31,811 nucleotides of DNA from Candidatus Saccharimonadota bacterium (GCA_028289075.1 JAQGGX010000058.1:1-31811), one strand, 5' to 3'. Numbered from the stretch's first letter, positions 6,503 to 14,384 are shown. Made by a program: numbers and translations. The notes: a model not told the origin generated them from the letters alone.

Positions 6503-7123
6503 TTATACTTTGTTATCCAGCCATGGCCGCTGAGCAATTATGAGCGCTCTGGAGGAGATAATCTCCTTCTGCACAGCACCGTTGACAATATATTGATTTG
6601 GCTTGTATTGCTCTTTATATTTAAGTACCTTCCAGCCCGCTTGAGTGTATATGTCGCTCAATTCGCCCGGATGGAAGCAGCGGGCAGTGTTCTTTACATT
6701 TGCCATACCCGGCTGAACCAAGTAGCCTCCGATGATGTTCAGCCCACCCTGACGCGTTACATTTCTTAATGCATCCAAAGCTATAAATGCATGAGTTTTA
6801 GGCATGAGATGCAAGACATCATCTGACAACACAATATCAAATGCCCTCGCAAACGGTGGGCGGCGAATATCTCCGGCTATGTAGGTATTTTTTCCTGCCA
6901 GCTCTCCAGCGCGAGTATTATTTCGCCTTGCAGCGTCTAATTCATCTATGTCGTTACTCAGGTTCACGACATTATGACCAAGTTGAGCCAGGTGTAAGCC
7001 ATGCCTACCGGTACCGCATCCAGCATCCAGAATATCTCGTGGAGTTTCCGTATCGAGCGAAGCAGCAAACTCACGAATATAATCGGCTGGTGGTAGTCCA
7101 AGAGGTAATTCAACTTGTGTCAT
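6503..7123 (-). CDS. Class I SAM-dependent methyltransferase (TehB-like)
   Basis: Motif I ILDAGCGTGRHG; FDIVLS; GGLNII. Confidence 0.9.
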   Translation of the reverse strand: MTQVELPLGLPPADYIREFAASLDTETPRDILDAGCGTGRHGLHLAQLGHNVVNLSNDIDELDAARRNNTRAGELAGKNTYIAGDIRRPPFARAFDIVLSDDVLHLMPKTHAFIALDALRNVTRQGGLNIIGGYLVQPGMANVKNTARCFHPGELSDIYTQAGWKVLKYKEQYKPNQYIVNGAVQKEIISSRALIIAQRPWLDNKV

Positions 7124-7246
7124 AGGTTCTCAAACAATATTTCTATATGAAAAAAGGCATCAAATGCCATATGTAGGTATATTATAGCATATACGTCAAT
7201 ATTAGTCAATATATACCATTTCATGCTGGAGTATTATGGATATTTT

Positions 7247-7255
7247 TGGTACAAT
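7247..7255 (+). promoter_or_regulatory. Extended -10 promoter element, probably driving the tRNA-Gln locus
   Basis: TG-G-TACAAT matches TGnTATAAT, about 40 nt upstream of the first tRNA-like copy. Confidence 0.5.
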
Positions 7256-7294
7256 CTCCCCTGTTTTATAGCGTGCACACAGTACGCATAATAA

Positions 7295-7359
7295 TGGGGA
7301 TTGGCCAAGCCGCACCGACACCGGATTCGGTCCTGCCATTCGAGGGTTCGAATCCCTCA
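7295..7359 (+). pseudogene. Degenerate tRNA-Gln copy lacking the 3' acceptor strand
   Basis: First 15 nt (TGGGGATTGGCCAAG) identical to the intact tRNA; anticodon loop TTC-GGT has a 1-nt deletion; intact T-arm GAGGG-TTCGAAT-CCCTC; no ATCCCCAGCCA end. Confidence 0.8.
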
Positions 7360-7375
7360 AACAAATTAACAATAT

Positions 7376-7398
7376 GATTCAGAATATTTCTCTTGGCT
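7376..7398 (-). repeat. Inverted copy (anti-repeat) of the tRNA 3'-end/trailer repeat
   Basis: GATTCAGAATATTTCTCTTGGCT; its reverse complement matches 7472-7494 (AGCCAAGAGAAATGTCCTGAATC) at 21/23. Confidence 0.9.
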
Positions 7399-7402
7399 TT
7401 AG

Positions 7403-7476
7403 TGGGGATTGGCCAAGTGGTAAGGCACCGGGTTCTGGTCCCGATATCGGGGGTTCGAATCCCTCATCCCCAGCCA
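7403..7476 (+). tRNA. tRNA-Gln (anticodon CUG)
   Basis: 74-nt cloverleaf: acceptor TGGGGAT/ATCCCCA, D-arm GCC-AAGTGGTAA-GGC, anticodon loop TT-CTG-GT, T-arm GGGGG-TTCGAAT-CCCTC, G discriminator, encoded CCA. Confidence 0.96.
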
Positions 7477-7508
7477 AGAGAAATGTCCTGAATCCCGGCG
7501 TCCCCAGC
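7469..7508 (+). repeat. Direct repeat R1 (40 bp; tRNA 3' end plus trailer)
   Basis: CCCAGCCAAGAGAAATGTCCTGAATCCCGGCGTCCCCAGC, identical to 8567-8606. Confidence 0.97.
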
Positions 7509-7555
7509 TAAATCAAAACCCGGTCGAAAAATCGGATTTACTGTTATCCCCATTT

Positions 7556-8503
7556 TTATTGGATACGTAAATCTGCGACGAGTCTGGCATATTGCGTAAA
7601 AGCTGGTTTTGGCAGGTACTCGTCATCCATGATGCCGAAATGATAGAATATGCCCTCCTTGTCACTGTCGGTATCGCGGAGTTGAAAGAGCTCATAATGC
7701 GTAATATTGTAAGTGTCTTTAACTTCATACACGCTCATGATGATACGCTCGAGCGTAACCGCTTGTTGTTCTAGCGGGCGCTGGTCACCGGTCGGCCAGC
7801 CGTTTTCGGTAATTCGGATTGGCACGTGACCGCCGATACCCGCTCCTGCCAGATCACGCTCGCGAAGATCATTGATAATGGACTGAACTGCAGGTGCAAT
7901 TTGCTCTGTCGGAATTGGCCGGAATACGTCCGGGAAGAAGTCGAATCCAACATAATCTAACGCTTTGAGGAATTCTGGCGTGGAAAGCTCGCTAAGCTTT
8001 TGCCAATAAGTGTCTGGACCAAATGTTGGCGTAACATTGAAGCCAACTGCAACCTTACCCCAGCCGGCAGCTTGCAGTGCTGTTTTGGCTGCTATAACGC
8101 CTTCGGTGAGTGCACGCATGGACGAGGGATAGTCACCGTCCATACCATGGCCAACCACATTAGTTTCTTCGGTAATTTGTAGTGCACCGAGATGTGCACC
8201 GTATTCGTCTACGACTTTTTCTATAAAACGCTGCCAGTCTTCCATGTCGCCGGTATCAGTTTGGTAACATATGACCAGGTCAAGTTTGCGACCATGTATC
8301 GCATACTGTTCTGGACGAAACGGTGTGTGGTTGGCGGATTTACTATTGCCCTTATAGTGCAGGTAAGCTCGTGCCAACAGTGTCGCCGCGTCACCCTGCA
8401 GTGTGTCGAGTGCGCTATTAATTGCACTTGGATTATCGGGCTTGCCTTGCAGTAGCCCTTCATCTGAACCAGTTGCGCTGCCTACGTATATGCCAAATTC
8501 CAT
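7556..8503 (-). CDS. Putative clan GH-A-like TIM-barrel glycoside hydrolase
   Basis: 315 aa; ITENGWPT resembles a nucleophile motif, LQITEETN a possible acid/base region, DYVGFDFFP; AGGAGG SD upstream. Confidence 0.6.
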   Translation of the reverse strand: MEFGIYVGSATGSDEGLLQGKPDNPSAINSALDTLQGDAATLLARAYLHYKGNSKSANHTPFRPEQYAIHGRKLDLVICYQTDTGDMEDWQRFIEKVVDEYGAHLGALQITEETNVVGHGMDGDYPSSMRALTEGVIAAKTALQAAGWGKVAVGFNVTPTFGPDTYWQKLSELSTPEFLKALDYVGFDFFPDVFRPIPTEQIAPAVQSIINDLRERDLAGAGIGGHVPIRITENGWPTGDQRPLEQQAVTLERIIMSVYEVKDTYNITHYELFQLRDTDSDKEGIFYHFGIMDDEYLPKPAFTQYARLVADLRIQ

Positions 8504-8566
8504 ACATCCTCCTATGCCTTACTCCTATCGCTATTGTACTCACAAGTTTGGAATATGGGCTACTTA

Positions 8567-8606
8567 CCCAGCCAAGAGAAATGTCCTGAATCCCGGCGTC
8601 CCCAGC
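8567..8606 (+). repeat. Direct repeat R2 (40 bp)
   Basis: Identical to 7469-7508. Confidence 0.97.
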
Positions 8607-8610
8607 CACG

Positions 8611-8645
8611 AAAAGAGCATCCTGCCAAAGGTAGGGTGCTTTTTT
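8611..8645. terminator. Bidirectional terminator-like hairpin at the left end of unit 2
   Basis: AAAAGAGCATCCTGCC-AAA-GGTAGGGTGCTTTTTT, 13 nt beyond the stop of 8659..9525. Confidence 0.75.
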
Positions 8646-8658
8646 AGTTAGCTATGCA

Positions 8659-9525
8659 TTACTTCATGAACTCAGCTATGCATTCCCACAGTTTTTCTGG
8701 CTGCTCATCAGCAATAAAATGACCACTGCCCTCGATTTTCTTACCTTCAATATTTACTAGGCCAGCCCTAGTGAAGCCTGCAATATAAGGCTCAATGCTC
8801 ACCCCACTATGACTACCCCTGAGGTAAAGAACAGGAGTCTGAATAGACTGACTTGGGGCGGGCGTATTATCTTTTTTGTCTTGCGTAAAGGCACGGTACC
8901 ATTCAAAACCGGTACTGAGCGCGCTAGGCTGTGTGTATGCTTTGGCATATCGTTCACGTGATTCTGTTGTTATCAATTCAGGTTTGAGCGACATAGCGTC
9001 GAAGAAGAAATCGAAGTAATCCGCTTGTTTACCCTGTACTAATTTCTCTGGTAACTCCGGAATAGTATGAAATGCAAAGTGCCAAATATGGGGATTGCGC
9101 AACACTTCATCCCACGGGTCAATTCCAGGCACCGCGACATCTATGATAATGGCTCGTTCCAAATAATCACCGTGATTAGTAAGATATGAATAGGTAACCA
9201 TACCGCCGCAATCATGACCAACAAGGGTCACATGCTGGAGGTCCAGCGCCTGGACAACGCCGTATACATATGCAGCAATTTCCTTTTTGCTCCCAACAAG
9301 CGGCTCACAACTAGACGCGCCCATCCCTGGCATGTCTACGGACACTGCATGCACCGTCTGACCCGCGAGGATCATAACTTTTTCAAAGGCCGACCAGTCT
9401 TGTGGCCAGCCATGCAAAAAGAGTACTACAGGGTCGTTAAGCATCCCACACTCGACGACGTGAATACGCGCATCCTTGACCTCTATATATCTGTGCCGTA
9501 GTTCATGGGTACTTTGAAGTTCCAT
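8659..9525 (-). CDS. Alpha/beta hydrolase, epoxide hydrolase/haloacetate dehalogenase-like
   Basis: HGWP oxyanion motif, GHDCGG nucleophile elbow (Asp), WHFAFH, GFEWYRA, C-terminal GHF. Confidence 0.92.
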   Translation of the reverse strand: MELQSTHELRHRYIEVKDARIHVVECGMLNDPVVLFLHGWPQDWSAFEKVMILAGQTVHAVSVDMPGMGASSCEPLVGSKKEIAAYVYGVVQALDLQHVTLVGHDCGGMVTYSYLTNHGDYLERAIIIDVAVPGIDPWDEVLRNPHIWHFAFHTIPELPEKLVQGKQADYFDFFFDAMSLKPELITTESRERYAKAYTQPSALSTGFEWYRAFTQDKKDNTPAPSQSIQTPVLYLRGSHSGVSIEPYIAGFTRAGLVNIEGKKIEGSGHFIADEQPEKLWECIAEFMK

Positions 9526-9625
9526 ATCTTTTACTATACCCCCTTTCTCATCCTAATAGGTAGAGCACTATGCCCCCTCCTATCATGCCCATCACCATCG
9601 TTCAAAGCTTGGAACGTTGACTACC

Positions 9626-9649
9626 TCCCCAGCCAAGAGAAATGTCCTG
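9626..9649 (+). repeat. Direct repeat R3 (24 bp, shortened)
   Basis: TCCCCAGCCAAGAGAAATGTCCTG, identical to 7467-7490. Confidence 0.93.
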
Positions 9650-9748
9650 GCTCGCTACCCTACCGCCTCTGCAGGAGGCGGACGTACAGGAGAGCTGCTT
9701 CGCAATCTCGACACTGAGCTTCGTTCTTCCGCTGAAAGTGCGGCTTAA

Positions 9749-9937
9749 CATTCGGCTTTATCAAGCAACGCTTACTTCAATACACAGCGCACCAATGGCC
9801 CCCTCACCGCTCCCAGTACCAGTGCGTCTAGCGGTAACGGTGTCTACACCTACAGTGCGGACGCTATTTTCCCCACCAGCACTTACCAGGCAACCAACTA
9901 CTGGGTTGATCCTATATTTAACCTGACGACTCCTTGA
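9749..9937 (+). pseudogene. C-terminal remnant of a DUF4082-like domain protein
   Basis: Hand translation HSALSSNAYFNTQRTNGPLTAPSTSASSGNGVYTYSADAIFPTSTYQATNYWVDPIFNLTTP*; no start codon, in-frame TAA at 9746-9748. The GPL..GNGVY..FPT..NYWVD pattern is recognised as DUF4082. Confidence 0.75.
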
Positions 9938-9947
9938 AGTCAGATCC

Positions 9948-10709
9948 CTATTTTTTCTTGAACCTCTTTTTGATTATTCCCCACACGAAATGGGCATTGC
10001 CTCGAGCCATGAATTCTTTTTTGTTGCTGCCGATCGACTCTATCAGCCGTGAGGCTGTGAATTCGGCACTATCTGGGTCGGGCAAGAAATCTTGCCTTTG
10101 AGCTTTGGCTTCCATCTCGCGTGGATCCATCTTGAAGACATTCTTTCCAAACTGAGATGACGTGATGAATGGATAAAACGCGCTTACCTCGATATTGTCT
10201 TTGGCAAGTTCTTTGCGCATCACGAGTGTCATATGCGTAAGAGCTATCTTTGTCAGGGAGTAGGCGCCTAGGCCGGGTAAAGCCATCTTGGCTGTCGGTG
10301 TACTGACGTTCACGATCCTTCCGCCGCTCTGGGCGCGCATGATCGGTAGTACCGCTTGCACCGCGACCAGCGGGCCGACGACATGCAGGTCGAACAGGTA
10401 GCGTACTTTGTCTGCTTCTACGAGCTCGAGCGGGCTTTCATAACCCTTGCCGGCGTTATTTATGAGTATGTCGATACGGCCAAAGTGTTCGTGCACTTTC
10501 TTTACCATTGCTTGTACGGACGCGTCATCCGTCATATCGGTTGGGATTGCCACACTTCTCTCAATGCTATCTGCAACCTCGTCGAGCGTGTCGCTCCCTG
10601 GCGCGGCGATTGCCACCAACGCACCTTGTGCCGCTAGCTGTCTAGCCGCTGCGAGTCCGATACCGGATGATCCTCCGGTTATTATCACGACCTTTTCTTT
10701 AAAATTCAT
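9948..10709 (-). CDS. SDR family NAD(P)-dependent oxidoreductase
   Basis: TGGSSGIG, NNAG and catalytic YSLTK. Confidence 0.95.
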   Translation of the reverse strand: MNFKEKVVIITGGSSGIGLAAARQLAAQGALVAIAAPGSDTLDEVADSIERSVAIPTDMTDDASVQAMVKKVHEHFGRIDILINNAGKGYESPLELVEADKVRYLFDLHVVGPLVAVQAVLPIMRAQSGGRIVNVSTPTAKMALPGLGAYSLTKIALTHMTLVMRKELAKDNIEVSAFYPFITSSQFGKNVFKMDPREMEAKAQRQDFLPDPDSAEFTASRLIESIGSNKKEFMARGNAHFVWGIIKKRFKKK

Positions 10710-10757
10710 ATTGTTGCCCCTTCTTGCACGTAATGCATAACAGTGATACTCTAAATT

Positions 10758-10773
10758 TAGAACAATTGTTCTA
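10758..10773. promoter_or_regulatory. Probable TetR operator
   Basis: Perfect 16-bp palindrome TAGAACAATTGTTCTA between divergent SDR and TetR genes; TATAAT at 10785-10790. Confidence 0.75.
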
Positions 10774-10796
10774 GAACAGTCAAGTATAATTTATAT

Positions 10797-11420
10797 ATGT
10801 CCGATCACTATTTACGCACCACCCCAGTTCATAAGCGCAGTCAGGCGACAATTCAGAAAATCCTGAATACCGCTGAAGCTGCTTTTTTGGAGTTGGGTTA
10901 TGACAAAGTTACGACGCGAATCATTGCCGAAAGAGCTGGCGTGCCTACGGGTTCCCTGTATCATTTTTTCCCAAACAAAAATGCCATCCTGGATGGCCTC
11001 GCAGCTCGACACCTAGAAGCCCAAAAGGACATGCACCAAGATTTACAATCTGTTTCACCGACCACAGACCTAGAGGTGTTCATAGACCTACTAGTCGACA
11101 AGATATTGATCCATTTTGAATCACACGCACCGTTTGAGCGAATTATCAATGCACGTTCGTCTTCGTCGGAAATAGCAGAGTACGTGAAGCGTTTTAACGA
11201 GGAAGCGCTAAACAATACTATTCGGAATATGGCTGCCGCCTACCCTTCCGTATCTCCTGACGTTCTCAAAGTGCAGGCTGAAACAACTGTGGCGCTCGTG
11301 AGGAGTTTGCTAGATGTCTCTACCCGCCAATCTGACGCTGCTACTCGTGCAAAAGTCATAGAAAACATGAAGGTTGCCCTGCATGCAATATGGGAGCCAC
11401 TTATAAAGACGCTGCGATAA
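10797..11420 (+). CDS. TetR/AcrR family transcriptional regulator
   Basis: N-terminal HTH GYDKVTTRIIAERAGVPTGSLYHFFPNK. Confidence 0.95.
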   Translation: MSDHYLRTTPVHKRSQATIQKILNTAEAAFLELGYDKVTTRIIAERAGVPTGSLYHFFPNKNAILDGLAARHLEAQKDMHQDLQSVSPTTDLEVFIDLLVDKILIHFESHAPFERIINARSSSSEIAEYVKRFNEEALNNTIRNMAAAYPSVSPDVLKVQAETTVALVRSLLDVSTRQSDAATRAKVIENMKVALHAIWEPLIKTLR

Positions 11421-11446
11421 GGCTCACCGACGGTAGTCATTGTAAG

Positions 11447-11686
11447 ATGAAAAAGAAAATAATTTTCCTTGCTGGAGGTACATTTATTTACATCGTGCTC
11501 CTGTCTGTAGGTACTACGCCGCCTGCGTTTAACCGAACAACAAACTCCGGCACGGAAAATATGGGTCTAACCGGCGCCAACATCCGCTGGGGTACACTTG
11601 CCGCAGGCCAAACGGCGTTACCAGCGAGCTTTATGTCCGCGAACATCGTCTCTACGAGCAACTTGTTTATCGTTTGTGGTATGTAG
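11447..11686 (+). CDS. Small protein with N-terminal hydrophobic segment (79 aa)
   Basis: Within track ORF 11390..11686; start reassigned to ATG 11447 (MKKKIIFLAGG...); followed by a terminator-like hairpin. Confidence 0.45.
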   Translation: MKKKIIFLAGGTFIYIVLLSVGTTPPAFNRTTNSGTENMGLTGANIRWGTLAAGQTALPASFMSANIVSTSNLFIVCGM

Positions 11687-11707
11687 GGCTAAGATCTAGA
11701 GTTTATC

Positions 11708-11730
11708 ACTAACCTCTGGGTTAGTTTTAT
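11708..11730 (+). terminator. Terminator-like hairpin
   Basis: ACTAACC-TCTG-GGTTAGT followed by TTTATT. Confidence 0.55.
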
Positions 11731-11877
11731 TGTTGATCCCATGGATGTATGTCGCCTAGTGTGGTGCGAGACATATAGACTTTTATGGCTTGATTGTAGC
11801 AGAAGCGGTTACAGGGCATTTTCAGGGGCGCAAAACCCTTTTAACTGTGGTAGGCTATTATCCGTATCACCCTACGT

Positions 11878-12035
11878 TGGGGAATGGCAACTGGTAAGTC
11901 ACCGGGTTCTAGTCCCAGGATCAGGGTGAGACATGCCCGGGGCATGTCGCAAGGCGACTTTCCGATGCAAGCTATGCTTACAATCGTGAAATCGCGGGGC
12001 TGCCGGAGGTAGGTCGAATCCCTCATCCCCAGCCA
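11878..12035 (+). pseudogene. Interrupted tRNA-Gln-derived copy with CUA anticodon and ~86-nt insert in the T-arm
   Basis: 5' half TGGGGAATGGCAACTGGTAAGTCACCGGGTTCTAGTCCCAGGATCAGGGT (11878-11927) aligns to the intact tRNA; 3' half TCGAATCCCTCATCCCCAGCCA (12014-12035) is identical to 7455-7476. Confidence 0.82.
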
Positions 12036-12036
12036 A
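12014..12036 (+). repeat. att-like direct repeat of the tRNA 3' end (23 bp)
   Basis: TCGAATCCCTCATCCCCAGCCAA, identical to 7455-7477; identity begins in the T-loop. Confidence 0.95.
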
Positions 12037-12063
12037 TTCGATTTTCAACTAATCGGTTCGAAC

Positions 12064-12087
12064 GAAAGACTTCCGAAGAAGTCTTTC
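12064..12087. terminator. Terminator-like hairpin after the interrupted tRNA copy
   Basis: GAAAGACTTC-CGAA-GAAGTCTTTC, perfect 10-bp stem. Confidence 0.7.
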
Positions 12088-12166
12088 ACATTTTGCAATA
12101 GTTGTTACAAAATCTCTAAGCTCACTTCCTGAAAATTTCTAAACATATCCACTAGCCCTAACCATG

Positions 12167-12202
12167 GAAAAACCTCTAGATCTTCTGATTTAGAGGTTTT
12201 TC
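12167..12202. terminator. Bidirectional terminator-like hairpin
   Basis: GAAAAACCTCTAGATC-TTCT-GATTTAGAGGTTTTTC, 16-bp stem with one G-U pair. Confidence 0.65.
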
Positions 12203-12293
12203 TCTGTGTTGTGGGGGGTGTATTGATTTTCATAAATGTAGCATATATACTACGTAATATAGTACTTATAGTACACTGGAAGGAGGGCGACTA

Positions 12294-13196
12294 GTGGTAA
12301 GAAAACCAAACAATTTTACTATCGAAGTAAAAAATCTAGGGATGCAATACGGAGATAATCAGGTATTAAAAGACGTAAACTTTCATGCCAGGCAAGGCGA
12401 GGTGCTCGTATTGCTTGGCCCTAACGGGGCAGGTAAAACTACTACCATCGAAATTCTGGAAGGCTTTCGCAAAGCATCGACCGGATCGGTGGCCGTACTG
12501 GACATAAACCCGGAAAAAGGAGATGAGGCATGGCGGGCACGACTTGGCGTCGTTCTTCAGTCTTGGCGCGACCATTCTAAGTGGTATGTTCGCGAGTTAT
12601 TGCAGCATATTGGGAAATACTATGTGCCATACTCTACCGAGAGTCATAAACGCCCCTATGATACAGATGAAATACTCCACATCGTAGGGCTAGCTGAGCA
12701 TGCGCACAAGAAGTTGGGTGAGTTATCTGGTGGACAGCGGCGTCGTATGGATGTTGCAATCGGACTAATCGGTAATCCTGAAGTGCTATTTCTTGATGAG
12801 CCTACTGTTGGCTTTGACCCTATCGCACGCCAGGAGTTTCATGATGTTATCCATCGTCTCTCCGATCTAGAGAAAACGACAGTTCTATTAACAACACATG
12901 ACTTGCAAGAAGCAGAAAAACTTGCTGACAGAATCATCATATTGGCAGGCGGCAAAATAATTGCGAATGGTACCGCCGGAGAACTGGCGCAAGAAATTGA
13001 AGGCCGGACTGAAGTGCGTTGGCAGCAGAACGGAGAATTAATGGTCCATTCGACAAAAGATGCCACAGCGTTTACACGAGATTTGTTACGTCAACACGAA
13101 TCTGGTATTTCTGATCTGCAGATACACGGCACGACATTAGAGGAAACATACACGGGACTTATCCAGAAGTACGAAGAGAAAAAGGAGGCAAAATAA
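12294..13196 (+). CDS. ABC-2 type exporter ATP-binding protein
   Basis: Walker A GPNGAGKT, signature LSGGQRRR, Walker B LFLDEPT, H-loop TTHD; GTG start after AAGGAGG. Confidence 0.95.
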   Translation: MVRKPNNFTIEVKNLGMQYGDNQVLKDVNFHARQGEVLVLLGPNGAGKTTTIEILEGFRKASTGSVAVLDINPEKGDEAWRARLGVVLQSWRDHSKWYVRELLQHIGKYYVPYSTESHKRPYDTDEILHIVGLAEHAHKKLGELSGGQRRRMDVAIGLIGNPEVLFLDEPTVGFDPIARQEFHDVIHRLSDLEKTTVLLTTHDLQEAEKLADRIIILAGGKIIANGTAGELAQEIEGRTEVRWQQNGELMVHSTKDATAFTRDLLRQHESGISDLQIHGTTLEETYTGLIQKYEEKKEAK

Positions 13197-14350: not shown

Positions 14351-14384
14351 CCAGCCATTACGAATTTCAACTAATCAGTTCGAA
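14351..14384 (+). repeat. Degenerate direct repeat of 12029-12062 (34 bp)
   Basis: CCAGCCATTACGAATTTCAACTAATCAGTTCGAA vs CCAGCCAATTCGATTTTCAACTAATCGGTTCGAA, 30/34 identical. Confidence 0.88.

What the first reader, a model, noticed from the sequence alone, without database searches (positions are those of the whole stretch)
7376..7494. Anti-repeat in the tRNA leader can pair with the tRNA 3' end and the cassette repeats
Seen: 7376-7398 is a 21/23 reverse complement of 7472-7494. As RNA the duplex has one A-C mismatch and one U-G wobble, and it ends 4 nt before the tRNA +1. It is equally complementary to R2 and, over 19 nt, to R3. Inference, three options: (a) a pre-tRNA leader/trailer helix that sequesters the discriminator and CCA and controls RNase P/3' maturation; (b) inverted recombinase or accessory-factor sites bracketing the att core, which would also allow inversion of the tRNA gene; (c) a tracrRNA-like anti-repeat acting on repeat-containing RNA. 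Such a long inverted flank is not a normal tRNA feature.
Basis: partly seen in the sequence, partly recalled or inferred. Interest (0 to 1): 0.68.

Follow-up and report, generated by a model that had tools for sequence, protein, structure and literature searches.

The report
Conserved leader-trailer helix clamping tRNA-Gln
The inverted repeat around this Saccharibacteria glutamine tRNA gene is real and is kept by evolution as a roughly 21-base-pair helix that pairs the tRNA's upstream leader with its CCA end and trailer, most likely to process or protect the tRNA precursor, not to recombine DNA or to guide anything.

Summary
Observation confirmed. 7376-7398 is a 21/23 reverse complement of 7472-7494. 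It flanks the only tRNA-Gln gene found in this 82%-complete Candidatus Saccharibacteria genome, and none of the other 33 tRNAs there has anything similar.

I collected 43-44 distinct tRNA-Gln loci (CUG and UUG isoacceptors, genomes and metagenomes) with the same architecture:
- The helix starts at discriminator G73 and buries the encoded CCA.
- It runs mostly 20-23 bp (mode 21-22) and then stops.
- The arm sequences are only 49% alike between loci, yet cognate arms are 90-94% paired.
- 17 of 21 pairs show compensatory double changes, about as good as the tRNA's own stems.
- No non-Gln tRNA examined (0 of 50) has it.

Extra trailer copies, the "cassette repeats", occur only in this window and one other locus. 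The leader arm is single-copy and no recombinase gene lies nearby.

Best reading (0.55): an rRNA-style leader-trailer stalk on the pre-tRNA, an RNase III-sized duplex and/or a clamp on the CCA end. RNase III is encoded in 6 of 6 carrier genomes and a CCA-adding enzyme was found in none. Transcription of both arms and any cleavage are untested.

The flanking broken spare tRNA copy carries a structured insert family that this scan has noted before in other Saccharibacteria genomes.

The parts
7265..7292 (+). Promoter-like site (TTTATA, 16 nt, CATAAT) directly upstream of the broken spare tRNA-Gln copy. Read-through from here would transcribe the whole leader arm.
   Evidence: Consensus scan. A match to a consensus only; function not shown.
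7295..7359 (+). Decayed spare copy of tRNA-Gln. Its first 15 nt are identical to the working gene. A shortened remnant of the structured insert follows (judged by eye), then an intact T arm (7342-7358). There is no 3' acceptor strand.
   Evidence: 7292-7359, 80% identity to the tRNA; alignment with relatives that keep the full insert; weak T-arm-like hit at 7342-7358.
7366..7373 (+). TTAACAAT box (-10-like), 2 nt upstream of the outer end of the leader arm. A box of this type abuts the arm in nearly all related loci.
   Evidence: Its role as a promoter is inferred, and the transcription start is unresolved.
7376..7398 (+). Leader arm of the helix (the 'anti-repeat').
   Evidence: (I5).
7399..7402 (+). 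Single-stranded linker TTAG between the helix and tRNA +1, holding the RNase P site. It is 3-8 nt long in relatives.
7403..7476 (+). Working tRNA-Gln(CUG) with U1-A72, discriminator G73 and encoded CCA.
   Evidence: ARAGORN. Rfam tRNA model, 59.8 bits. It is the only tRNA-Gln found in the assembly.
7472..7494 (+). Trailer arm: the last acceptor base, G73, CCA and 18 nt of trailer.
7490..7508 (+). Relic copy of the tRNA's T loop, 3' acceptor strand and discriminator (GAATCCCGGCGTCCCCAGC). Its first bases form the outer end of the trailer arm.
   Evidence: An intact copy sits at the same place in relatives, and 26 of 43 loci have one.
8567..8606 (+). R2: exact 40-nt copy of 7469-7508 (tRNA end, trailer arm and relic) at the junction after the first inserted gene.
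   Evidence: (D2, I6).
9628..9649 (+). R3: 22-nt copy of the tRNA end plus the inner trailer arm at the junction after the second inserted gene.
   Evidence: (D1, D2).
11878..12036 (+). Uninterrupted spare tRNA-Gln copy with anticodon CTA and the full structured insert (about 90-100 nt) in its T arm. It shows what the upstream relic at 7295-7359 looked like before decay. It has no leader-trailer helix of its own.

Best explanation
The inverted repeat is the DNA image of a leader-trailer helix of the tRNA-Gln precursor. A subset of Saccharibacteria (about 5% of the species sampled in this order) keep it on both glutamine isoacceptors.

Anatomy. The 3' strand begins at discriminator G73, so the encoded CCA and about 18 nt of trailer are buried. 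The 5' strand lies in the leader. A 3-8-nt unpaired linker on the 5' side carries the RNase P cleavage site. The helix is mostly 20-23 bp long (mode 21-22) and has a loosened centre: leader C opposite trailer A at position 10/11, and a U-G wobble or mismatch at positions 13-14.

Proposed mechanism. The helix acts like the leader-trailer stalks of rRNA. It closes the working tRNA off as its own folding unit inside a longer transcript that also carries pieces of a broken spare tRNA-Gln copy. It offers a duplex of RNase III size as the entry cut, and it keeps the encoded CCA away from 3' exonucleases until RNase P and trimming finish the ends.

Shown here: the helix, its covariation, its restriction to tRNA-Gln, its independence from cassettes, RNase III genes in the carriers, and no detectable CCA-adding enzyme. 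Inferred: that both arms are transcribed together, that RNase III cuts the helix, and the order of the processing steps.
For: (1) Covariation.
- In 11 genomes from several families, 93.2% of cells are paired against 33-45% when the partners are slid. 12 of 20 pairs change on both sides, and 0 of 500 shuffles reach this.
- In 44 loci aligned to a covariance model, the helix is 94.5% paired with 17 of 21 pairs changed on both sides. The tRNA's own stems are 98-100% paired.
- In 43 loci, cognate arms pair at 90% and non-cognate arms at 61%, although the leader arms are only 49% identical.
- RNAalifold predicts the helix stacked on the cloverleaf without being told.

(2) Geometry typical of a structure, not a sequence signal. 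The anchor at G73 is invariant, 37 of 43 helices are 20-23 bp (mode 21-22), and pairing drops to chance beyond position 22.

(3) Specific to tRNA-Gln. It is the only one of 34 tRNAs in this genome. Among held sequences, 0 of 50 non-Gln tRNAs have it against 45 of 116 tRNA-Gln genes. Both the CUG and UUG genes carry it, with different arms, in one genome (G209).

(4) Independent of DNA rearrangement relics. Several loci have the helix with no spare copy upstream and no relic downstream. Extra trailer copies occur only in the window and L147.

(5) Enzymes. RNase III is encoded in 6 of 6 carrier genomes. A type A RNase P RNA is present in this genome. The CCA-adding enzyme family PF01743 was found in 0 of 6 genomes that are 82-98% complete, and all 34 tRNAs of this genome encode CCA.

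(6) Both arms can be on one transcript. There is a promoter-like site upstream of the spare copy, and in several relatives canonical TATAAT boxes sit 5-9 nt before the arm. I saw no T-run terminator before the trailer in the flanks I read.

(7) A precedent exists: rRNA leader-trailer helices are essential and are RNase III substrates (PMC10250234).
Against: - No RNA data. No RNA run was shown to hold this DNA, and the search (kind 'any') was not an RNA search. Transcription of the full leader arm and any cleavage are therefore unproven.
- The commonest -10-like hexamer (AAYAAT) overlaps the first 2-3 nt of the arm. A start about 7 nt further on would leave only about 13-14 bp of helix in that transcript. 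Yet the outer pairs covary too, which would then need read-through from upstream or a constraint at the DNA level.
- Wobble statistics do not identify the folding strand. Outside the two hot spots I count 18 G-U cells against 10 A-C cells. The conserved C-A mismatch would be a G-U wobble on the opposite strand.
- Nested tRNA-Gly, -Leu and -Pro loci of the same element family do without such a helix, so it is not needed for nested genes in general. Why glutamine tRNAs have it is unexplained.
- Burying the CCA should hinder bacterial RNase P, which reads the CCA (own knowledge). The helix must therefore be opened first, and that step is assumed.
Confidence: 0.55

Rival explanations
1. A structure-specific DNA site. 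The two arms pair in single-stranded DNA (or as a cruciform) with the tRNA as the loop. They serve the unknown machinery that inserts the tRNA-linked structured elements and gene cassettes at Saccharibacteria tRNA genes, as integron attC hairpins serve IntI.
For: - The helix sits in a rearrangement hot spot. A broken spare tRNA copy with the repeated structured insert lies upstream in 20 of 40 loci and a relic 3' end lies downstream in 26 of 43.
- In the window the trailer arm lies inside the 40-nt junction repeat of the inserted genes.
- Conserved structure with free sequence and a loosened centre is also how attC sites look (own knowledge).
- The outer pairs covary although the nearest -10-like box may place them outside one class of transcripts.
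- In G214 and G146 the working tRNA has a different acceptor stem from the relics around it, as if the unit had been brought in.
Against: - There is no recombinase or HUH nuclease gene in the window. The genome holds only one tyrosine recombinase gene, on another contig, and no serine recombinase.
- Cassette junctions carry only the trailer arm, never their own leader arm.
- Arrays with extra trailer copies occur in only 2 of 43 loci.
- The inner end of the helix is fixed at the tRNA discriminator, which makes sense for RNA ends but not obviously for a DNA site.
- No conserved core motif exists apart from the tRNA's own GCCA.
- No alternative joints were seen at the arms.
Confidence: 0.15
2. 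A neutral scar. The leader arm arose by an inverted duplication (template switch) of the tRNA end plus trailer. It stays complementary through mutational self-correction of quasi-palindromes, and it has no function.
For: - T-loop copies and inverted T-loop copies are common around these tRNA genes.
- The outer part of most trailer arms is the palindromic T-loop core TTCGAA.
- Template-switch correction can produce concerted changes without selection (own knowledge).
Against: - The same mismatches are conserved across many divergent loci: C opposite A at position 10/11 in 17 of 37, and U-G at position 13 in 19 of 37. Self-correction would erase them.
- The length is held at 20-23 bp in 37 of 43 loci.
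- Pairing is as well kept as in the tRNA stems over arms that are only 49% identical.
- The arms are 73-80 nt apart, which is far for hairpin-templated correction.
Confidence: 0.08
3. Inverted binding sites for a recombinase, invertase or accessory protein that bracket an att core and can flip the tRNA gene.
For: - Recombination between the arms would regenerate an intact tRNA gene on the other strand, because each arm ends in the complement of AGCCA (worked out from the sequence).
- The trailer arm is part of the repeated junctions in the window.
Against: - The arm sequences are almost free (49% identity; every position from 5 to 21 shows three or more pair types). No protein could read the same site in all of them.
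- No recombinase gene lies nearby.
- Wherever the -10-like box or the relic is present, the orientation relative to them is the same.
- No strand-switch joints appeared in four soil data sets (contigs only).
Confidence: 0.04
4. A tracrRNA-like anti-repeat that pairs in trans with repeat-containing RNA from the cassette array.
For: The leader arm is complementary to R2 (21/23) and to R3 (19 nt).
Against: - R2 and R3 are simply copies of the tRNA end plus trailer.
- The genes between them lie on the minus strand, so their mRNAs would carry the leader-like strand, not its complement.
- The repeats are about 1.1 kb apart and enclose ordinary genes: an alpha/beta hydrolase and a protein with no Pfam hit.
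- No Cas domain appeared in the 20 neighbouring proteins scanned.
- 41 of 43 helix loci have no further repeat.
Confidence: 0.02

Closest known systems
Leader-trailer helices of bacterial pre-rRNA (16S and 23S processing stalks, RNase III substrates; Warner, Bundschuh and Fredrick 2023, PMC10250234)
   Same: Complementary sequences flank a stable RNA. They form a long helix that covaries while its sequence drifts. The helix brings the two ends of the mature RNA together, is of RNase III size, and is removed during maturation.
   Different: Here the enclosed RNA is a single 74-nt tRNA and the helix is shorter (mostly 20-23 bp). It starts at the discriminator, so the functional CCA end itself is paired. 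It is found only on glutamine tRNAs of some Saccharibacteria. Cleavage has not been shown.
Ordinary pre-tRNA leader-trailer pairing that extends the acceptor stem (own knowledge, from E. coli and yeast precursors)
   Same: The 5' leader pairs with the 3' trailer next to the acceptor stem, and this influences RNase P and 3' trimming.
   Different: Those pairings are a few base pairs, are not conserved as a unit, and do not show a fixed two-turn length. This one is a 21-22-bp covarying helix with conserved internal mismatches.
T-box riboswitch antiterminator bulge UGGN pairing with the tRNA NCCA end (own knowledge)
   Same: A UGGC sequence pairs with the GCCA 3' end of the tRNA, including a base matched to the discriminator.
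   Different: In T-boxes the pairing is in trans, 4 bp long, and sits in an mRNA leader that senses charging. Here it is in cis within the precursor and continues for another 17-18 bp.
Integron attC sites
   Same: Imperfect inverted repeats whose structure, not sequence, is conserved, with unpaired positions in the middle, next to arrays of single-gene inserts.
   Different: Each attC travels with its cassette and needs IntI. Here the cassettes carry only one arm, no integrase lies nearby, the 'loop' is a working tRNA, and most carriers have no cassettes.
tRNA-linked structured repeat of Saccharibacteria
   Same: The helix-bearing tRNA-Gln often sits just downstream of a broken spare tRNA copy that holds this roughly 90-100-nt, multi-hairpin insert in its T arm. 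The window holds one full copy (11878-12036) and one decayed copy (7295-7359).
   Different: The helix is a separate feature. It is absent from nested tRNA-Gly, -Leu and -Pro loci and present in some tRNA-Gln loci with no insert nearby.

Membership tests
rRNA-type leader-trailer processing helix | Complementary leader and trailer flank the mature RNA | tested here: met
rRNA-type leader-trailer processing helix | Pairing is kept by compensatory changes across relatives | tested here: met
rRNA-type leader-trailer processing helix | The duplex is long enough for RNase III (about two helical turns) | tested here: met
   Mode 21-22 bp; 37 of 43 helices are 20-23 bp.
rRNA-type leader-trailer processing helix | RNase III is encoded by the organism | tested here: met
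   PF14622 found in this genome and in 5 of 5 other carriers.
rRNA-type leader-trailer processing helix | Both strands lie on one precursor transcript | tested here: inconclusive
   Promoter-like sites lie upstream, but the commonest -10-like box overlaps the arm. No RNA data.
rRNA-type leader-trailer processing helix | The helix is cleaved by RNase III in vivo or in vitro | not testable with these tools
   Needs an enzyme assay or RNA end mapping.
Integron attC or other hairpin recombination site | A dedicated recombinase is encoded beside the array | tested here: not met
   None among 20 window proteins. One PF00589 hit on another contig and no PF00239 hit. The assembly is 82% complete.
Integron attC or other hairpin recombination site | Every cassette carries its own two-armed site | tested here: not met
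   The leader arm is single-copy. R2 and R3 are trailer-arm copies only.
Integron attC or other hairpin recombination site | Conserved core motifs at the base of the hairpin | tested here: not met
   The outer positions vary freely.
Invertible DNA segment | Both orientations are present in populations or relatives | tested here: not met
   No strand-change joint in four soil data sets (contigs only). Same orientation in all loci that have flanking landmarks.
Transposon or MITE terminal inverted repeats | Conserved termini, target-site duplication and several copies per genome | tested here: not met
   One copy in the genome. The termini are not conserved. No duplication flanks the arms.
CRISPR tracrRNA anti-repeat | A short repeat-spacer array and cas genes | tested here: not met
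   The repeats are about 1.1 kb apart around genes. No Cas domain in the neighbours scanned. I ran no genome-wide cas search.

The most novel reading that the evidence does not exclude
The helix is not only an RNA stalk but defines a structure-recognised unit (-10-like box, leader arm, tRNA-Gln, trailer arm). This unit would be exchanged between Saccharibacteria and dropped into the T loop of the resident tRNA-Gln gene, replacing it and leaving the broken spare copy. The folded arms, with the tRNA as the loop, would be the recombination substrate of an integrase-free system that also builds the single-gene cassette array seen in this window.
Probability: 0.1. Interest if true: 0.85.

Novelty: new variant of a known kind. 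Interest (0 to 1): 0.55.

Why it matters
Bacterial tRNAs are thought to be matured from short, loosely structured flanks. A two-turn, covarying helix that locks the CCA end of one particular tRNA would be a new processing or quality-control device. It occurs in bacteria with very small genomes that appear to lack a CCA-repair enzyme.

It gives a clean, testable RNA motif: 44 examples and a working covariance model. It could be used to study how Saccharibacteria process RNA, and why glutamine tRNAs are treated differently. It also bears on how working tRNA genes survive inside the rearrangement hot spots created by the tRNA-linked structured elements of this phylum.

It also removes a misleading lead. 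The 'anti-repeat' is not evidence for a guide RNA or an invertase system.

Tried and rejected
- General tRNA feature: rejected. Only 1 of 34 tRNAs in this genome has the helix, and 0 of 50 non-Gln tRNAs in held sequences.
- A general rule that each tRNA-linked element carries a segment complementary to its target tRNA end: tested with RNAduplex on 15 compact loci. Z-scores ran from -2.9 to +0.6, so there is no consistent signal.
- Outer 'tRNA' still functional (spare 5' part pairing with the downstream relic): rejected. The relic matches the spare copy in G214 but the working copy in G209.
- A conserved protein gene next to the structured insert: none within 1.5 kb in 30 loci.
- Strand of folding from wobble counts: uninformative.
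- Rfam: no family other than tRNA matches 6800-12600.
- Sequencing runs: only soil DNA contigs held the stretch. They gave no inversion, and one low-support joint, 9648 to 12016.
- The genome contigs pattern scan was too loose. Most of its 63 hits were oral or gut Saccharibacteria whose terminators happen to contain AATCC, and only 6 had the helix.
- Literature searches found no description of the helix or of a missing CCA-adding enzyme in Saccharibacteria. The library is limited.

Full report
**What is there.** The window comes from a Candidatus Saccharibacteria genome: 921 kb in 98 contigs, 82% complete, 47.5% G+C (record titles of relatives).
- ARAGORN and the Rfam tRNA model place one tRNA gene in the window, tRNA-Gln(CUG) at 7403-7476 with an encoded CCA.
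- The stretch 7376-7398 is a 21/23 reverse complement of 7472-7494.
- The left arm ends 4 nt before tRNA +1. The right arm begins at A72, G73 and CCA and runs 18 nt into the trailer.
- As RNA the duplex has one A-C mismatch and one U-G wobble. It appears in the minimum-energy fold of 7360-7510, z = -3.9 against shuffles.
- My own arithmetic gives about 2e-4 such pairs expected by chance in the window.
- Of the 34 tRNA genes of this genome, only this one has a long helix that abuts the tRNA.
- The observation, including the complementarity to the downstream copies R2 and R3, is confirmed.

**Surroundings.** The locus is a mosaic of tRNA-Gln pieces.
- Upstream, 7295-7359 repeats the first 15 nt of the tRNA. 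It ends in an intact T arm but has no 3' acceptor strand.
- Just after the trailer arm, 7490-7508 is a degenerate copy of the T loop and 3' acceptor strand.
- The 40 nt at 7469-7508 recur exactly at 8567-8606, and their first 22 nt recur at 9628-9649. These copies bracket two single minus-strand genes: a 315-aa protein with no Pfam hit and an alpha/beta hydrolase.
- A complete spare tRNA-Gln copy lies at 11878-12036. It has anticodon CTA and a structured insert of about 90-100 nt in its T arm.
- A further repeat pair, 12029-12062 and 14351-14384, brackets an ABC transporter.
- No recombinase gene lies in the window. The genome has one PF00589 hit on another contig and no PF00239 hit.
- CorA and PAP2 genes upstream are shared with the tRNA-Gln loci of relatives, so the locus is chromosomal and orthologous. 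The downstream side varies.

**The structured insert is a known acquaintance of this scan.**
- The insert of 11878-12036 hits 109 of 401 sampled genomes of the order, often several times per genome. A second copy lies in this genome on another contig after tRNA-Lys.
- Its stems covary.
- It occurs in two layouts. In the first, it lies behind a complete tRNA, closed by a copy of that tRNA's T loop to CCA. In the second, it lies inside a broken spare 5' copy just upstream of the working tRNA.
- No conserved protein gene lies beside it.
- Earlier reports of this scan describe the same family on many other Saccharibacteria genomes. It is context here, not my finding.
- In relatives of the window, the layout reads as follows:
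  1. the spare 5' part;
  2. the insert;
  3. a T loop;
  4. a TTAACAAT box;
  5. the leader arm;
  6. the working tRNA-Gln;
  7. the trailer arm;
  8. a relic 3' end.
- The window's upstream copy has lost most of its insert.

- A search of 301 genomes of the order found the tRNA everywhere. The match extended into both flanks in a few genomes from other families. Reading those loci showed arms that differ yet stay complementary.
- For 11 genomes, 93.2% of cells in a 20-pair helix are paired, against 33-45% when the partners are slid. 12 pairs change on both sides, and 0 of 500 shuffles reach this.
- RNAalifold predicts the helix, stacked on the cloverleaf, on its own.
- A metagenome scan anchored only on TGGC upstream of a tRNA-Gln and RGA downstream gave 39 loci, 32 of them with a long helix. 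A pattern search of 401 genomes added tRNA-Gln(UUG) genes that carry the helix.
- Over 43 distinct loci, cognate arms pair at 90% and non-cognate arms at 61%. The leader arms are only 49% identical, and every position from 5 to 21 shows three or more standard pair types.
- I built a covariance model from the 11 genomes and used it to align 44 loci. There the helix is 94.5% paired, with 17 of 21 pairs changed on both sides, close to the tRNA's own stems at 98-100%. That alignment is fitted to the structure and leans towards it, but the ungapped counts agree.
- One of these loci (L194, genome G340) comes from an unpublished genome. No conclusion depends on it.

**Shape of the helix.**
- It always starts at G73. 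37 of 43 helices are 20-23 bp (mode 21-22), and pairing falls to chance beyond position 22.
- Two irregularities recur: leader C opposite trailer A at position 10/11 (17 of 37 loci), and U-G or a mismatch at positions 13-14 (19 and about 10 of 37).
- The linker to tRNA +1 is 3-8 nt.
- A TTAAYAAT-type box, or a canonical -10 box, abuts the outer end of the leader arm.

**Specificity and spread.**
- None of 50 non-Gln tRNA genes in the sequences I held has such a helix, against 45 of 116 tRNA-Gln genes. The sample is biased towards tRNA-Gln.
- Nested tRNA-Gly, -Leu and -Pro loci lack it.
- With the model, 8 of 151 sampled genomes of the order (this genome included), in at least six families, score 104 bits or more. 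Ordinary tRNA-Gln genes score about 80-100. The helix is therefore sparse but widely scattered.
- 20 of 40 loci have the structured insert upstream and 26 of 43 have a relic 3' end downstream. Several have neither.
- Extra copies of the trailer arm occur only in the window and in L147, and the leader arm is always single.

**Weighing the readings.**
- Free sequence, a fixed anchor at the tRNA end, a fixed two-turn length and covariation equal to tRNA stems point to pairing itself as the selected property. This rules out two inverted protein sites and makes a neutral scar unlikely, because the same mismatches persist across divergent loci.
- An RNA helix in the precursor is the simplest reading. 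It is the tRNA counterpart of the rRNA leader-trailer helices, which are essential and are cut by RNase III (PMC10250234).
- RNase III is encoded in all six carriers tested, and a type A RNase P RNA is present in this genome.
- No PF01743 CCA-adding enzyme was found in these six genomes, which are 82-98% complete. All 34 tRNAs of this genome encode CCA, so a paired and protected CCA would have value.
- A clamp would also keep the working tRNA from mispairing with the duplicated halves around it.
- Weak points:
  - There are no RNA data.
  - The commonest -10-like hexamer overlaps the arm, so one class of transcripts might hold only 13-14 bp of the helix.
  - Wobble counts do not identify the folding strand.
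  - I cannot say why only glutamine tRNAs have it.
- A DNA-level, structure-read site tied to the insertion system remains possible (0.15). It would be the exciting alternative.
- The tracrRNA idea and the invertase idea have no support.

**Verdict.** This is a new variant of a known kind of device: a leader-trailer processing or clamping helix, here on a tRNA and covering its CCA end. The cassette repeats of this window are a local by-product of the trailer's position next to the tRNA end, not the reason for the helix.

Noticed in passing
window 11878-12036: A spare tRNA-Gln copy with anticodon CTA (amber-reading if it were functional) and a structured insert of about 90-100 nt in its T arm. 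ARAGORN and Rfam do not call it.
   Followed up: partly
G000 contig C42:3468-3559 (tRNA-Lys ctt at 2760-2836): A second copy of the same structured insert in this genome, 80% identical. It is closed by a copy of the tRNA-Lys 3' end, about 630 nt behind the tRNA.
   Followed up: partly
whole genomes G000, G176, G239, G209, G296, G214: The CCA-adding enzyme family PF01743 was found in none of six Saccharibacteria genomes (82-98% complete), and all 34 tRNA genes of G000 encode CCA. If this holds, these bacteria cannot repair tRNA 3' ends.
   Followed up: partly
L045 (G176:C10), upstream of its tRNA-Gln: The broken spare tRNA-Gln copy seems to hold two structured inserts, one in the D loop and one in the T arm. 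This is judged by eye from the alignment.
   Followed up: no
L056 (G089:C38): A working tRNA-Arg(tct) is flanked on both sides by the structured insert: a broken spare 5' copy with the insert upstream, and a terminator, insert and copy of the 3' end downstream.
   Followed up: no
window 9594-9648 joined to 12016-12035 in run X1: A 188-nt contig of the source soil sample (depth 2.9 against 7.6) joins the right end of the second inserted gene plus trailer directly to a T loop-to-CCA copy, then continues into unlike sequence. Only 20 letters fit on one side, so it may come from another strain.
   Followed up: no
L147 (metagenome contig Ga0302286_10023964), 1250 and 1321: This is the only other helix locus with a second copy of the trailer arm (1 mismatch), 71 nt downstream of the first.
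   Followed up: no
L185 (G214) and L188 (G146): The working tRNA-Gln has acceptor stem TAGGGTG/CACCCTA. The relic 3' end next to it in both genomes, and the spare 5' copy read in G214, keep the common TGGGGAT/ATCCCCA. It looks as if the working gene had replaced the resident one from outside.
   Followed up: partly
whole genome G000: ARAGORN finds no tmRNA gene in the 82%-complete assembly.
   Followed up: no
window 8544-8566 and 9605-9627: The sequences just left of R2 and R3 are 84% alike. They look like degenerate T arms (GTTTGGAAT and GCTTGGAAC against GTTCGAAT), so each inserted gene ends in a pseudo tRNA 3' half.
   Followed up: no
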